Source of the DNA: Dictyostelium discoideum
Taxonomy: Eukaryota
Reading direction: 5' to 3'
Assembly: GCA_000004695.1 (NCBI GenBank)
Contig: CM000150.2
Location: 2,144,001-2,208,000, forward strand
Length of the DNA: 64,000 bases
Part shown: in pieces, positions 48,015-51,000 of the stretch
How the letters are laid out: each line of letters opens with the position of its first letter
Position numbering within the stretch: position 1 is the first letter of the stretch
Program-made: the position numbers

Positions 48015-51000
48015 TATAAATTGTTTATATTTATAATATAATTTGGTTTTTATTATTTAATAATTTACCTTTTTTATTTTTATTATTAGAGTTAACACCA
48101 TTTGGAATATCTCCACCTTGTTGAGAAACAACAACTGCTAATGAATAGCTAATAGATAATAAGACAATTATTAATAATAATAATAATTTATTTGAGTTCA
48201 TTTTTTTATTTTTTTTTTATAATAAATAAATAGTTTTTTTTTTTTTTTATAAATTGTAAAAAAAAATTTAATTATCATCAAAAAAAAAAAAAAAAAATTA
48301 AAAATTAAATTTAATCATAAATCTCTCCCAAAATCAAGAAAAATTTAAAAAAAATAAAAAAAAAAAAAAAAAAAAATTAAATTATAATGCAAATCGAAGA
48401 AAAGATATTTTTTTTTTTTTTTTTCAGTTAAAATCTCATTTTAAAAATTAATAAAACAACCAACCAACCAATGAAAATACAAAAAAAAAAAAAAAAAATA
48501 ATAACTTAAATTTCTAAAAAAAATAATGGAATTTTTTTTTATTGAATAAAATAACATAAATATAGAGTAATCAAAATACACAAAATGATATAAAAAAAAA
48601 AAAATGAATGTAATCATTCTGTTTTTTTTTTTTTTTTTTTTTATAACCAGTTTAAAGACCATTTTCAAAAACATTGCAGGTTTTTCCAGAGGCATATGAA
48701 TTCATCATAGCAACAATAGTGATATTAGTAACACTGACTTGTTCAGCACCAATACCAGTGATTGTATTGCCATCAACTATAACATGAGCAATTGTTGAAT
48801 TTCCTTTGACACCATTTAATTGGGCTTTCAAGTCGAGCCACACTGGACCATTACTTGTGAAAGAGCTTTGCATATCAATTCTAACACTTCCTTTATTTGC
48901 TATTGTACCATTCATATTTCTAAAAATAATTGAATATTTTAATTGGTCTGCTGCACTTGCAAGATCTTTTTTTTTTCAATAAATATGTAAAAGAAAAAAA
49001 AAAAAAAAAAATTAATTATTTTTATTTACCAGTAAATGTTATTTGGTTTTTATTATTTAATAATTTACCTTTTTTATTTTTATTATTAGAGTTAACACCA
49101 TTTGGAATATCTCCACCTTGTTGAGAAACAATAGCTGCTAATGAATAGCTAATAGATAGCAAGACTATTGTAAATAATAATATTAATTTATTATTTTTGT
49201 TCATTTTTTTTTTTTTAATGAATGAAATTTTTTTTTTTTATGATTTAAATAAAAATTTAATTTTACTATAATCAAAATAAAAATAAATAAAAAAAACTAA
49301 ATAAAATAAATTTAAAATAGATCACCCAATACTTTAGTGAATATTTTTTTTTTTTTTTTTTTTTTTAAAAAATAATTTGTTTTATTTTAATTTAATTTTT
49401 TTGTTTTGTTAATTTTATCACAAATAAATGTACAACAAAATAACACCACTTTTTTCTGTGCACACCTTACCAAATTAAATGAAAATTACAAAAAGGGAAG
49501 AAAATAACAGTTTGTTAAAAAAAAATATATATATTTTAAAATTTAATTATTATTTTTTTTTTCCTTTTTGTTCCATTTTAATATTATTTTTTATATCCAA
49601 TTCATTTTCTATTTTTATATATTTGAAATTAAAAAAAAAAAAAAAAAAGGTTAAGGAAGTACAAGAAATAAAATTGTAAAAATAAAAATAAAAATAAAAA
49701 TAAAAATATTAATAGAAAAGCAAATTCTATATAAAATATCAAACAACAAAAACTAAAATATTTTAATTAATATAAACTTTTTTGATTAAAAAAAAAAATT
49801 TAAAAAAAATATATAAATTAAAGAATAGATTACTCAACAGTGAAAACAATAAAAAAATCATTTTAAAAAAAAAATTATTTGTTATTTATTTTTTTATTTT
49901 TTTTTTATTTTTTTTTACAAATTTATTAAAAAAAATGAAAAAACTAAAATTGTCATTTTAATCATTTTTTATTTTCGTAATTTTAATCATTTATAACTAT
50001 TCTTTAATAGAATTCTTTTTTTAAAAAAAAGAACACCATGGAAGATTTTTGTTTTTTTTTTAAAAATGGATATAAATTATTATTTTTTTTTAAAAAAATA
50101 AAACAAGATAATATCCAAAAATAAATAAAAAAGAAAAAAAAATGCCTCCAAAGATTAAAATAATTACAGGCCCAATTGGTTCTGGGAAAACAACAATTTT
50201 AAATAGAATTAAAGAGTCATATGAAAAGAAATCTTTATTGGTCAAAAGGTTGGATTTTTCGGTGAACCTACTGATTCCACTGTAGCTAATGCTCTCCTAA
50301 AGGATATGTACTCAAAGTTTCCATTTGCTAATGATCAGTTTGAAACTTTACAAAAATACCTATTGGCTGTAGAAGCTAATGATTTTTGTAATGCTTTGTC
50401 ATCGTCAGAGTATGATATTGTTTACTTTGATACATCGGTTTTGTATGGAGTTGTATTTTTACAAACTGCTAATGATTTGAAAATCATAAACAATCAAACC
50501 TATTCAAATTGTCTAAAACGTTTTACTATCAAATGATTTCAAATTAATTTCGAAAATGCTGAAGTAACCATATTAAAAGTCATACCACCCATAGATAAGT
50601 GTATGGAACAAATTAAAGAAAGAGGTAGAGCCTTTGAAGTCGGTAGTTTATCCATGGAATAAAAAATTAATAAATAATGATTTATTAATTTTTTATTTTA
50701 TTTAAAATAGAAACAAAAATAGTTATGGTTTTATTTATTTCTTCTTGTCTAGTGTCATCATTTTCTTTTGGCACTTCACACAATCTAACAATTTTTCCAT
50801 TTATGTACTGAAGATTTGTTAATAAAGCAGTTCTTTCATTAAAATCATTTTCTTCAATACAAATGATATATTCACTGAGGGGCATACCATCTACTCCTTG
50901 ACCAAAAACCATTTTACAATCTTCAAAGTAATCTCTTGAGAATTTATAATGTTTAAAAAGGATAATGTCAATTATTTTTAGCATTTTTTCTTTACAGTCA

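What the first reader, a model, noticed from the sequence alone, without database searches (positions are those of the whole stretch)
50142..50662. Decayed bacterial-type deoxyribonucleoside kinase gene
Three reading frames together spell out a dNK: a P-loop (IITGPIGSGKTT), the EP-containing substrate region (GFFGEPTDSTVANALLKDMY) and the C-terminal arginine-rich lid (IKERGRAFE). They are broken by at least two frameshifts and a stop, over a region too short for introns. D. discoideum is known to carry bacterial-like purine dNKs (dAK, dGK) thought to be horizontally acquired. This looks like a dead paralogue of that group, an unannotated relic of the acquisition or a later duplication. The surrounding 50-53 kb region is also slightly GC-richer and uses codons (CTG, GCC, CCC) that are atypical of Dictyostelium.
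Basis: partly seen in the sequence, partly recalled or inferred. Interest (0 to 1): 0.55.

Follow-up and report, generated by a model that had tools for sequence, protein, structure and literature searches.

The report
Dead kinase gene from repeated element
The broken deoxynucleoside-kinase-like gene is real, but it is not a dead copy of the amoeba's own purine kinases: it is a decayed fragment of a multi-copy, virus-like gene cluster that is scattered through Dictyostelium discoideum and its closest relatives and is absent from this site in a sister species.

Summary
Window 50142-50662 (+) is a real pseudogene of the deoxynucleoside kinase (dNK, PF01712) fold. Compared with intact relatives it has a 4-bp deletion, a 2-bp insertion, a 2-bp deletion and a ~660-bp deletion that removed its 3' third. 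An independent D. discoideum assembly carries the same sequence, so these are not assembly errors.

All close relatives (59-94% identity) belong to one multi-copy family, found only in D. discoideum, D. cf. discoideum, D. dimigraforme and D. citrinum. Many copies are truncated, and they sit among different host genes. No solved or named dAK/dGK is detectably similar by sequence. The fold matches insect, human, Giardia, Mycoplasma and poxvirus dNKs about equally.

At fuller copies the gene lies next to a PrimPol-like primase and a YqaJ exonuclease; in one locus a D5-like helicase lies ~8 kb away. Intact copies are under purifying selection (dN/dS 0.14-0.22) and lack the Arg of the ERS motif.

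In the window, the relic is part of a ~4.7-kb island (49311-54069) with no counterpart at the syntenic D. firmibasis locus. The island has twice the host GC3 and also holds a second decayed gene and two small co-travelling ORFs.

Best reading: a fossil fragment of an undescribed mobile or virus-derived element.

The parts
49311..54069 (.). Island with no counterpart at the syntenic D. firmibasis locus. It contains every part listed below.
   Evidence: flanking host genes are collinear with L011. Window ...49310 matches L011 ...9298, and window 54070... matches L011 9658.... Only 360 bp lie between those points in D. firmibasis. Exact breakpoints are unresolved because the flanks are low-complexity A/T sequence.
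49861..50141 (+). Conserved 5' flank (the divergent promoter region of the element) that travels with the dNK-like gene.
   Evidence: blastn alignments with L001, L002, L004, L006, L009 and L010 start at 49861-49890. In L002 the match starts 67 bp from the start codon of the PrimPol-like gene, which is itself absent from the window.
50142..50662 (+). dNK-like pseudogene. It has the P-loop, EP motif, Gln, DTS (in place of ERS) and the RGRAFE lid. The product is frame-broken and lacks about 87 C-terminal codons.
   Evidence: Identical in an independent assembly.
50222..50232 (+). Lesion 1: a 4-bp deletion (GAAA) within an A/G-rich run. It shifts the reading frame from 0 to 2.
50515..50516 (+). 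Lesion 2: a 2-bp insertion (AA). It shifts the reading frame from 2 to 1.
50542..50543 (+). Lesion 3: a 2-bp deletion (AT). It shifts the reading frame from 1 back to 2.
50661..50684 (.). Junction of a ~660-bp internal deletion, relative to L009 10457-11120. It removed the 3' 262 bp of the dNK-like gene and the spacer.
   Evidence: window 49875-50661 = L009 11894-11120, and window 50684-52873 = L009 10457-8259.
50685..51137 (-). 150-aa ORF of a small Cys-containing family that co-travels with the dNK-like gene. Its C-terminus is altered by three 1-bp deletions at 50712, 50724 and 50737.
   Evidence: It is 84-89% identical to the L009 copy (P0054). Function is unknown; the AF2 model is poor (pLDDT 52).
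51578..52780 (+). Decayed gene for a signal-peptide protein with a GIY-YIG-like motif. It is the counterpart of the gene in L009 called at 8356-9487 (360 aa), whose first-exon ORF extends upstream to 9556 and includes the signal peptide.
   Evidence: indels at 51679 (-1), 51898 (-2), 52356 (-2), 52438 (+5) and 52483 (-1), at 93% identity. The GIY-YIG reading rests on motifs only. It has no Pfam or PDB support.
52996..53215 (-). Non-coding stretch similar to the 3' flank of the 156-aa gene of L002, in inverted orientation.
   Evidence: 74% identity over 239 bp to L002 13104-12871.
53263..53601 (-). 112-aa ORF, a distant paralogue (about 34% identity) of the small-ORF family that flanks dNK-like copies elsewhere.

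Best explanation
Window 50142-50662 is a non-functional fragment of a dNK-like gene. The gene belongs to a multi-copy, mosaic gene cluster found in the D. discoideum species complex.

In the fuller copies the gene is transcribed divergently from a PrimPol-like primase-polymerase and lies next to a YqaJ/RecE-type exonuclease. In L002 a D5-like superfamily-3 helicase (DUF5906) and a GRF zinc-ribbon protein lie ~8 kb further upstream, outside the stretch shared with other loci, so it is not shown that they belong to the unit. Signal-peptide proteins with a GIY-YIG-like motif and several small ORF families accompany it.

A piece of that cluster lies in the window between a tandem array of small secreted-protein genes and a 155-aa host gene. 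It holds the promoter, the dNK-like gene, a small ORF, the GIY-like gene and another small ORF. It then decayed through three small indels and a 660-bp deletion in the kinase gene, and through five indels in its neighbour.

Shown:
- it is a pseudogene, and the lesions are real;
- it belongs to a multi-copy family, dispersed among different host genes;
- it is collinear with other copies;
- it is absent from the D. firmibasis syntenic site;
- it has a distinct codon composition;
- intact copies are under purifying selection.

Inferred:
- the cluster is, or derives from, a self-replicating mobile or viral DNA element;
- in intact elements the dNK-like protein supplies or handles nucleotides for element DNA synthesis, as viral dNK/TK genes do. 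Loss of the ERS arginine may mean a changed chemistry or a non-kinase role.

The window copy itself does nothing. At most it could give a 47-aa P-loop peptide.
For: - Pfam dNK above the gathering score.
- Nineteen homologues, all in four Dictyostelium taxa, many truncated.
- The copies lie at loci with different host neighbours: SDA1/WD40, PDEase, patatin/HSP70, lipase, Nckap1/RRS1, DEAD helicase.
- Shared repeat blocks between loci.
- The window is collinear with L009 over 49875-52873 at 87-92% identity, apart from the 660-bp deletion.
- Neighbours at fuller copies: YqaJ (Pfam E 4e-37) directly upstream; in L002 only, DUF5906/VapE-like helicase and GRF ~8 kb away; phage primase/helicase and RecE PHROGs.
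- The 398-aa neighbour matches human PrimPol (E 1.5e-12) with motifs I-III aligned.
- The lesions are identical in assembly GCA_054883475.1.
- The D. firmibasis syntenic locus lacks the island.
- GC3 is 0.20-0.21 in the island and in element genes, against 0.11 in host genes.
- dN/dS is 0.14-0.22 among copies with an intact kinase domain.
- AF2 model pLDDT 80.8, with dNK/dCK as top folds.
Against: - No integrase, transposase, capsid or packaging gene was identified in the cluster by Pfam or PHROGs.
- No terminal repeats or target-site duplication could be defined in the A/T-rich flanks.
- No relative of the dNK-like or PrimPol-like gene was found in IMG/VR or JGI metagenome contigs.
- The DUF5906 helicase and GRF genes were seen in one locus only, outside the block shared with other loci.
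- Absence in D. firmibasis could be a deletion there rather than an insertion here.
- The window holds none of the replication genes.
- Kinase activity of the family is untested, and one catalytic residue is missing.
Confidence: 0.7

Rival explanations
1. This is a dead paralogue of the host's bacterial-like purine kinases (DddAK/DddGK). It is left over from their horizontal acquisition or from a later duplication of them.
For: The Pfam family is the same. The codon usage is atypical for Dictyostelium, as might be expected of foreign DNA.
Against: - The nearest relatives are a separate multi-copy family.
- No named Dictyostelium dAK/dGK is among the 39 hits at E <= 1e-3 in 1.84 billion representatives.
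- A family-only profile detects no solved dNK, including bacterial dAK.
- The fold search does not favour bacterial enzymes.
- The ERS Arg is absent.
- The locus is an island missing in D. firmibasis and collinear with copies elsewhere.
Confidence: 0.04
2. This is an ordinary host gene family. A lineage-specific, fast-evolving cluster of host genes, including a PrimPol paralogue and a dNK-like gene, spread by segmental duplication and is being lost copy by copy. No mobile element or virus is involved.
For: - No transposase, integrase, capsid genes or terminal repeats were found.
- Intact copies are under purifying selection.
- PrimPol is a normal eukaryotic gene.
- No environmental or viral relatives were found.
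Against: - At least ten dispersed copies have breakpoints at different positions and unrelated host flanks.
- YqaJ, a typically viral gene, accompanies the dNK-like gene at most fuller copies, and a D5-like helicase lies in the same neighbourhood in L002.
- The codon composition is uniform across the cluster and differs from host genes.
- The island shows presence/absence at a syntenic site.
Confidence: 0.22
3. The gene is intact. The apparent frameshifts are assembly errors, tiny introns or programmed frameshifts.
For: Lesion 1 lies in an A/G-rich run, where sequencing errors are common.
Against: - The 521 bp are identical in a second assembly. Across the surrounding 20.5 kb that assembly differs from the window only by gaps; in the 5.5 kb that was parsed these are all poly-T length differences.
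- Three separate indels of 4, 2 and 2 bp plus a 660-bp deletion would all have to be errors.
- Indels of 2-4 bp are far below intron size.
- The neighbouring gene is broken as well.
Confidence: 0.01

Closest known systems
Cellular deoxynucleoside kinases of the dCK/dGK/TK2/Dm-dNK fold (PF01712), including the D. discoideum dAK and dGK described by Sandrini et al. 2007 (recalled from memory; that paper was not in the searchable library)
   Same: - The Pfam family is the same.
- The P-loop, the catalytic Glu of the EP motif, the conserved Tyr and Gln, and the RxRxxE lid are all present.
- The predicted fold of the intact relative superposes on 1ot3, 2a2z, 8puu and 2jat (TM 0.68-0.78 normalised by target).
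   Different: - Identity to any solved dNK is only about 20%, and there is no sequence-level hit from the family profile.
- The Arg of the ERS motif is replaced: DTS here, DSS and DGC in the two sister lineages.
- The protein has an extra low-confidence C-terminal tail of about 60 aa.
- The gene is multi-copy and dispersed, and most copies are decayed.
- It is not at a conserved host locus.
dNK/TK genes carried by large DNA viruses (poxvirus dCK-like, iridovirus and Megaviridae dNK, herpesvirus TK)
   Same: A dNK-fold gene sits next to the element's own DNA replication and recombination genes (primase and exonuclease; a superfamily-3 helicase lies nearby in one locus). The BFVD top matches are Turkeypox dCK, an erythrocytic-like iridovirus dNK and a Megaviridae dNK (E 2e-10 to 1e-9).
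   Different: No virion or packaging genes were identified. No related sequence was found in IMG/VR. Similarity to viral dNKs is no higher than to cellular ones.
Polinton-like viruses, virophage-like elements and endogenous giant-virus fragments in protist genomes (for example PMC4642659, PMC12220804)
   Same: These are multi-copy integrated DNA elements of roughly 15-40 kb. They combine a primase-polymerase, a superfamily-3 helicase and GIY-YIG-type genes, they expand within a lineage, and many of their copies are degraded.
   Different: The defining double-jelly-roll capsid genes, the packaging ATPase, the protease and the integrase were not found here. The GIY-YIG assignment rests on motifs only. 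Membership is therefore not claimed.
NDUFA10, a dNK-fold subunit of mitochondrial complex I
   Same: It is a precedent for a dNK-fold protein kept under selection for a role other than nucleoside phosphorylation. It appears among the PDB hits of the broad dNK profile.
   Different: It is a single-copy host gene with a different sequence. There is no evidence that the Dictyostelium family has such a role.

Membership tests
Deoxynucleoside kinase family (Pfam PF01712) | Score above Pfam's curated gathering threshold | tested here: met
   The frame-repaired window product scores 34.5 bits against a cut-off of 27 (E 2.2e-8). Intact relatives carry a precomputed PF01712 hit.
Deoxynucleoside kinase family (Pfam PF01712) | P-loop GxxxxGK[ST] at the N-terminus | tested here: met
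   GPIGSGKT, read directly in frame 0 from 50142.
Deoxynucleoside kinase family (Pfam PF01712) | Catalytic Glu (EP motif), conserved Tyr, base-binding Gln, and lid RxRxxE | tested here: met
   E43, Y58, Q72, R162, R164 and E167 (P0002 numbering) are invariant or nearly so in the 21-sequence alignment. All are present in the window copy: GEP, DMY, TLQ, RGRAFE.
Deoxynucleoside kinase family (Pfam PF01712) | ERS motif with its arginine | tested here: not met
   The column reads R in all 15 environmental dNKs of the alignment, including the two that have D in place of E (P0029, P0039). It reads T in this family (FDTS), S in P0022 and G in P0024. These three lineages form a clade (NJ bootstrap 0.915).
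Deoxynucleoside kinase family (Pfam PF01712) | dNK three-dimensional fold | tested here: met
   This was tested on the intact relative P0002. The AF2 model has pLDDT 80.8 and pTM 0.78. The top Foldseek hits are Dm-dNK, dCK, Giardia dAK and M. mycoides dAK, at E 2e-10 to 5e-9.
Deoxynucleoside kinase family (Pfam PF01712) | Nucleoside kinase activity | not testable with these tools
   This needs an enzyme assay of an intact copy, for example the 263-aa P0002.
Bacterial-like purine dNKs of D. discoideum (DddAK/DddGK lineage) | Closest relatives are DddAK/DddGK or bacterial dAK/dGK | tested here: not met
   All hits belong to the multi-copy family. None of the 39 representatives at E <= 1e-3 is a named Dictyostelium or bacterial dAK/dGK. 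The family profile does not detect M. mycoides dAK or any other solved dNK.
Bacterial-like purine dNKs of D. discoideum (DddAK/DddGK lineage) | Direct pairwise or phylogenetic placement with the DddAK/DddGK sequences | not tested
   The two sequences could not be obtained with the available tools. The AFDB library was not available.
Pseudogene | Disabling lesions relative to intact relatives, and real in the genome | tested here: met
   There are three frameshifting indels plus a 660-bp deletion. The sequence is identical in the independent assembly GCA_054883475.1.
Pseudogene | No functional transcript or protein | not testable with these tools
   No expression data are available here.
Mobile or virus-derived integrated DNA element | Several dispersed copies in unrelated host contexts | tested here: met
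   Ten loci have different host neighbours. They share blocks at 77-99% identity with differing end points.
Mobile or virus-derived integrated DNA element | Presence/absence at an orthologous site | tested here: met
   The D. firmibasis syntenic locus L011 has 360 bp where the window has the 4.76-kb island. Polarity (insertion or deletion) is inferred, not shown.
Mobile or virus-derived integrated DNA element | Own replication or recombination genes | tested here: met
   This holds at other loci, not in the window. Directly upstream of the dNK-like gene: a PrimPol-like gene (PDB 5l2x, E 1.5e-12) and YqaJ (E 4e-37), with matching PHROGs. A DUF5906/VapE-like helicase (E 6.5e-13) was seen only in L002, ~8 kb upstream and outside the shared block.
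Mobile or virus-derived integrated DNA element | Integrase or transposase, terminal repeats, target-site duplication | tested here: inconclusive
   Pfam found none in L002. The island flanks hold only low-complexity repeats. A DDE_Tnp_4 gene lies beside the cluster in L009 only.
Mobile or virus-derived integrated DNA element | Capsid or packaging genes (needed to call it a virus, PLV or NCLDV fragment) | tested here: inconclusive
   There are no convincing Pfam or PHROG hits among the L002 ORFs. Several ORFs of 280-500 aa remain unassigned. Their structures could not be submitted.

The most novel reading that the evidence does not exclude
The D. discoideum species complex carries a previously undescribed family of integrated DNA elements, at least ~8.5 kb in the best-conserved block and possibly 18 kb or more. 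The elements are virus-like or self-replicating. They encode a PrimPol-type primase-polymerase, a YqaJ exonuclease, secreted GIY-YIG-like proteins and a distinctive arginine-less dNK-like protein; a D5-like helicase may also belong to them. The element is recent enough to differ between strains and sister species, and the window relic is its fossil in the reference strain lineage. The dictyostelid-type dNK-like clade would then be an element-borne nucleotide enzyme with altered chemistry.
Probability: 0.45. Interest if true: 0.65.

Novelty: new variant of a known kind. Interest (0 to 1): 0.45.

Why it matters
Taken alone, the locus is one more pseudogene. Its value is as a pointer.

First, it shows that a model organism's genome holds fragments of a multi-copy cluster that carries replication genes and is not described in any paper found here. 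Intact copies exist in wild relatives. If the cluster is a mobile or viral element, it would be a rare handle on DNA viruses or large DNA mobile elements of social amoebae.

Second, the dNK-like clade without the ERS arginine is still under purifying selection. It is a candidate for a dNK-fold protein with a changed activity.

Third, the case corrects a plausible but wrong inference. A foreign-looking kinase relic in Dictyostelium need not be related to the known horizontally acquired dAK/dGK genes.

Tried and rejected
- **PDB sequence searches.** The repaired product and a family-only profile gave no dNK hit. Only a broad profile dominated by environmental dNKs hits dCK/dNK, so it says nothing about the affinity of this family.
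- **NCBIfam.** Only weak P-loop matches.
- **IMG/VR and JGI metagenome pattern scans.** No relatives of the dNK-like or PrimPol-like genes. For YqaJ there were only 24-29% matches, which are uninformative.
- **GIY-YIG assignment of the neighbouring decayed gene.** The conserved G-Y...I-G...R...E...N columns fit, but there was no Pfam, PHROG or PDB support. It stays a lead.
- **AF2 of the 150-aa ORF.** pLDDT 52, too poor to search with.
- **AFDB Foldseek.** This would have ranked DddAK/DddGK directly, but the library was unavailable.
- **Search for terminal repeats or target-site duplications around the island.** Only A/T low-complexity matches.
- **Literature.** No paper mentions DDB_G0294238 or DDB_G0295813, or an element of this kind in D. 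discoideum. The Sandrini 2007 paper is not in the library.
- **Rejected: introns or assembly errors as the cause of the frame breaks**.
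Full report
**1. What is in the sequence**

The window is Dictyostelium DNA: 12-35% GC, poly-N/Q ORFs and a roco-type kinase.

A three-frame translation of 50100-50700 shows MPPKIKIITGPIGSGKTTILNRIKESYEKK in frame 0, starting at the ATG at 50142. Frame 2 then gives IFIGQKVGFFGEPTDSTVANALLKDMYSKFPFANDQFETLQKYLLAVEANDFCNALSSSEYDIVYFDTSVLYGVVFLQTANDLKIINNQTYSNCL. Frame 1 gives TFYYQMISN. Frame 2 resumes with INFENAEVTILKVIPPIDKCMEQIKERGRAFEVGSLSME and a stop at 50660-50662.

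The joined product scores 34.5 bits on Pfam dNK (cut-off 27; E 2.2e-8). By itself it hits no solved structure.

**2. The lesions**

I aligned the DNA with five, and later nine, other copies. Relative to the copies whose kinase domain is intact, the window has:
- a 4-bp deletion (GAAA) after about 50222;
- a 2-bp insertion at 50515-50516;
- a 2-bp deletion after 50542;
- loss of similarity at 50661.

Against locus L009 the similarity resumes at 50684. Window 49875-50661 matches L009 11894-11120, and window 50684-52873 matches L009 10457-8259. The 3' truncation is therefore a ~660-bp internal deletion. It took out the last 262 bp of the gene and the spacer.

The same 521 bp are identical in a second D. 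discoideum assembly (GCA_054883475.1, locus L008). Over 20.5 kb that assembly differs from the window only by gaps (0 mismatches, 13 gap openings). In the 5.5 kb around the finding, which I parsed base by base, these are all poly-T length differences. That assembly shows no mismatches at all, so it is probably the same strain lineage. It is nonetheless an independent reading of the lesions. The frameshifts are therefore not assembly errors, and 2-4 bp gaps are not introns.

**3. Relatives**

A search of 5.8 billion proteins found 19 homologues. All are from D. discoideum (several strains, including AX4 DDB_G0294238), D. cf. discoideum, D. dimigraforme and D. citrinum, at 59-94% identity for 18 of them (40% for the weakest). 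Lengths range from 109 to 263 aa. Most are visibly truncated or chimeric. The AX4 gene model itself is frameshifted after VIPHI.

The longest intact form (P0002, 263 aa) has the kinase domain plus a C-terminal tail.

A full HMMER scan of 1.84 billion cluster representatives found only 39 proteins at E <= 1e-3. Outside the family the best are:
- a 370-aa EukProt protein (33% identity);
- a second D. cf. discoideum paralogue family (P0024, 29%);
- anonymous environmental dNKs at 24-33% identity.

No named Dictyostelium or bacterial dAK/dGK is among the 39. A profile of the family alone detects no solved dNK.

An AF2 model of P0002 (pLDDT 80.8) has the dNK fold. The PDB matches are Drosophila dNK, human dCK, Giardia dAK and M. 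mycoides dAK, at E 2e-10 to 5e-9. The viral matches are Turkeypox dCK and iridovirus-like and Megaviridae dNKs at the same level.

So family membership is secure. 'Bacterial-type' is not supported, and neither is kinship with DddAK/DddGK.

**4. Sequence features of the family**

In a 21-sequence alignment the P-loop, the EP Glu, Tyr, Gln, the RxRxxE lid and a following Tyr are conserved. The Arg of the ERS motif is T in this family, S in P0022 and G in P0024. It is R in every environmental dNK of the alignment, including two that read DRS/DRW.

These three dictyostelid-type lineages group together in a quick NJ tree (bootstrap 0.915).

Copies with an intact kinase domain have dN/dS of 0.14-0.22. 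For example, L002 against L006 gives dS 0.37 and dN 0.054. The intact gene is therefore maintained by selection, despite the missing arginine.

From general knowledge of dNK enzymology, that Arg contacts the 5'-OH/phosphate region. Activity may therefore be altered. This is inference.

**5. Genomic context elsewhere**

Ten loci were fetched. The host neighbours differ at each: SDA1 and a WD40 protein; a phosphodiesterase; patatins and HSP70; a lipase; Nckap1/RRS1; a DEAD/HA2 helicase. The copies break off at different points.

In the fuller copies (L002, L006, L009, L001, L004, L005) the gene is divergent from a 395-398-aa ORF. That ORF matches human PrimPol (E 1.5e-12), with the three AEP motifs aligned. 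Beyond it lies a YqaJ exonuclease (Pfam E 4e-37).

L002 also carries a DUF5906/VapE-like helicase that hits phage primase/helicase PHROGs, and a GRF zinc-ribbon protein. These two lie about 8 kb upstream of the dNK-like gene, outside the stretch shared with any other fetched locus. Whether they belong to the repeated unit is therefore open.

Downstream lie signal-peptide proteins with a GIY...YIG-like motif and several small ORF families, in alternative paralogous cassettes.

L002 (D. cf. discoideum) and L006 (D. dimigraforme) are collinear over about 15-18 kb at 77-88% identity.

All ORFs of the L002 cluster have GC3 of 0.17-0.30, with a mean of 0.21.

**6. Context in the window**

The window segment 49861-52873 is one contiguous piece of this cluster. 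It contains:
- the promoter region;
- the dNK-like pseudogene;
- a 150-aa small ORF (84-89% identical to the L009 copy, with three 1-bp deletions that alter its C-terminus);
- a second pseudogene at 51578-52780. This is the counterpart of the L009 GIY-like gene, with five indels.

A further small ORF (53263-53601) and its flank resemble another cassette of L002, in inverted orientation.

The 155-aa gene to the right (54420-54887) has an 85%-identical orthologue in D. firmibasis. At that locus the host genes are collinear with the window: the F-box-like gene, the GTPase, the WD40 gene, one small secreted-protein gene, the 155-aa gene, roco and the next gene. But 360 bp stand where the window has 49311-54069.

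The island's coding segments have GC3 0.20 and 4% GC-rich rare codons. Host ORFs have 0.11 and 1%.

**7. Interpretation**

The relic is a decayed fragment of a multi-copy gene cluster, not a duplicate of the host purine kinases.

I think it most likely (about 0.6-0.7, given the data) that the cluster is or derives from a mobile or viral DNA element. The reasons are:
- dispersed copies with varied break points;
- typically viral replication and recombination genes;
- a uniform, distinct composition;
- presence/absence at a syntenic site.

The weak points are:
- no integrase, transposase or capsid gene was recognised;
- no termini could be defined;
- no environmental or IMG/VR relative exists in the pattern scans;
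- the helicase was seen in one locus only.

The main rival, at about 0.2, is a host-cluster origin with segmental duplication.

For intact copies the most likely role is nucleotide supply for the element's own DNA synthesis, by analogy with viral dNK/TK genes. Because of the ERS change I hold this at roughly 0.4-0.5.

**8. Comparison with what is known**

- **dNK family (PF01712):** member by score, motifs and fold. It is atypical in lacking the ERS Arg.
- **DddAK/DddGK lineage:** the membership test failed on every feature I could test. The direct comparison remains to be done.
- **Polinton-like viruses or endogenous giant-virus fragments:** similar in lifestyle and in part of the gene content (PMC4642659, PMC12220804). 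The defining capsid and packaging genes were not found, so no membership is claimed.

No paper in the library mentions the AX4 family members or such an element.

**9. Verdict**

- The locus itself is a fossil of modest interest.
- The element family it points to, and the arginine-less dNK-like clade, are the parts worth following up.

Noticed in passing
window 45018-49310: There are four tandem paralogous units (about 0.7-0.85 kb, 80-88% identical to one another) of a small signal-peptide protein gene. The syntenic D. firmibasis locus has a single copy (L011 8346-9298). This is a lineage-specific tandem expansion directly next to the island.
   Followed up: partly
window 51578-52780 (+): This is a second pseudogene in the island. 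It encodes a signal-peptide protein with a GIY...YIG-like motif (PGLYIYF...VYYIGKS). Relative to the intact L009 copy it is broken by indels at 51679, 51898, 52356, 52438 and 52483. In a six-member family alignment the columns G, Y, I-G, R, E and N are invariant. No Pfam, PHROG or PDB match supports a nuclease assignment.
   Followed up: partly
window 50685-51137 (-) and 53263-53601 (-): These are two ORFs of a small Cys-containing family (AX4 member DDB_G0295813). The family occurs several times per element copy and only in D. discoideum and D. cf. discoideum. The function is unknown, and the AF2 model was poor (pLDDT 52).
   Followed up: partly
P0003 = DDB_G0294238 (AX4, 9.5-kb unplaced contig): The only annotated AX4 member of the dNK-like family is itself frameshifted after ...VIPHI. 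It is joined to an unrelated glycine-rich exon. The reference gene model is therefore a decayed, chimeric copy annotated as protein-coding.
   Followed up: partly
L002 8490-9686 (-), L006 8488-9675 (-): A PrimPol-like primase-polymerase gene (E 1.5e-12 to human PrimPol, motifs I-III aligned) is multi-copy. It always lies divergent from the dNK-like gene. Pfam does not recognise it.
   Followed up: partly
L009 1575-2879 (-); L009 2907-3067; L007 15020-15600: A DDE_Tnp_4 (PIF/Harbinger-type) transposase gene lies beside the cluster in L009. About 150 bp next to it recur as an inverted pair in L007. This looks like a separate MITE-like transposon. Any relation to the cluster is unknown.
   Followed up: no
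window 20854-20925 (-) and 22447-22518 (+): Two tRNA-Met (CAT) genes lie in divergent orientation 1.5 kb apart.
   Followed up: no
window 53133 and 54277-54339: Within the 5.5 kb parsed (49000-54500), the only differences between the window and the independent D. discoideum assembly are poly-T tract lengths, for example 23 extra T at 54277-54299. Across the whole 20.5 kb the two differ by gaps only, with no mismatches.
   Followed up: yes
P0018 (D. citrinum), P0020, P0023: Several annotated proteins fuse pieces of the dNK-like gene to unrelated exons. Examples are the N-terminal 46 aa fused to a PF25078 domain, and a GIY-like N-terminus fused to the dNK tail. Decayed copies are evidently being stitched into gene models in the new assemblies.
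   Followed up: no
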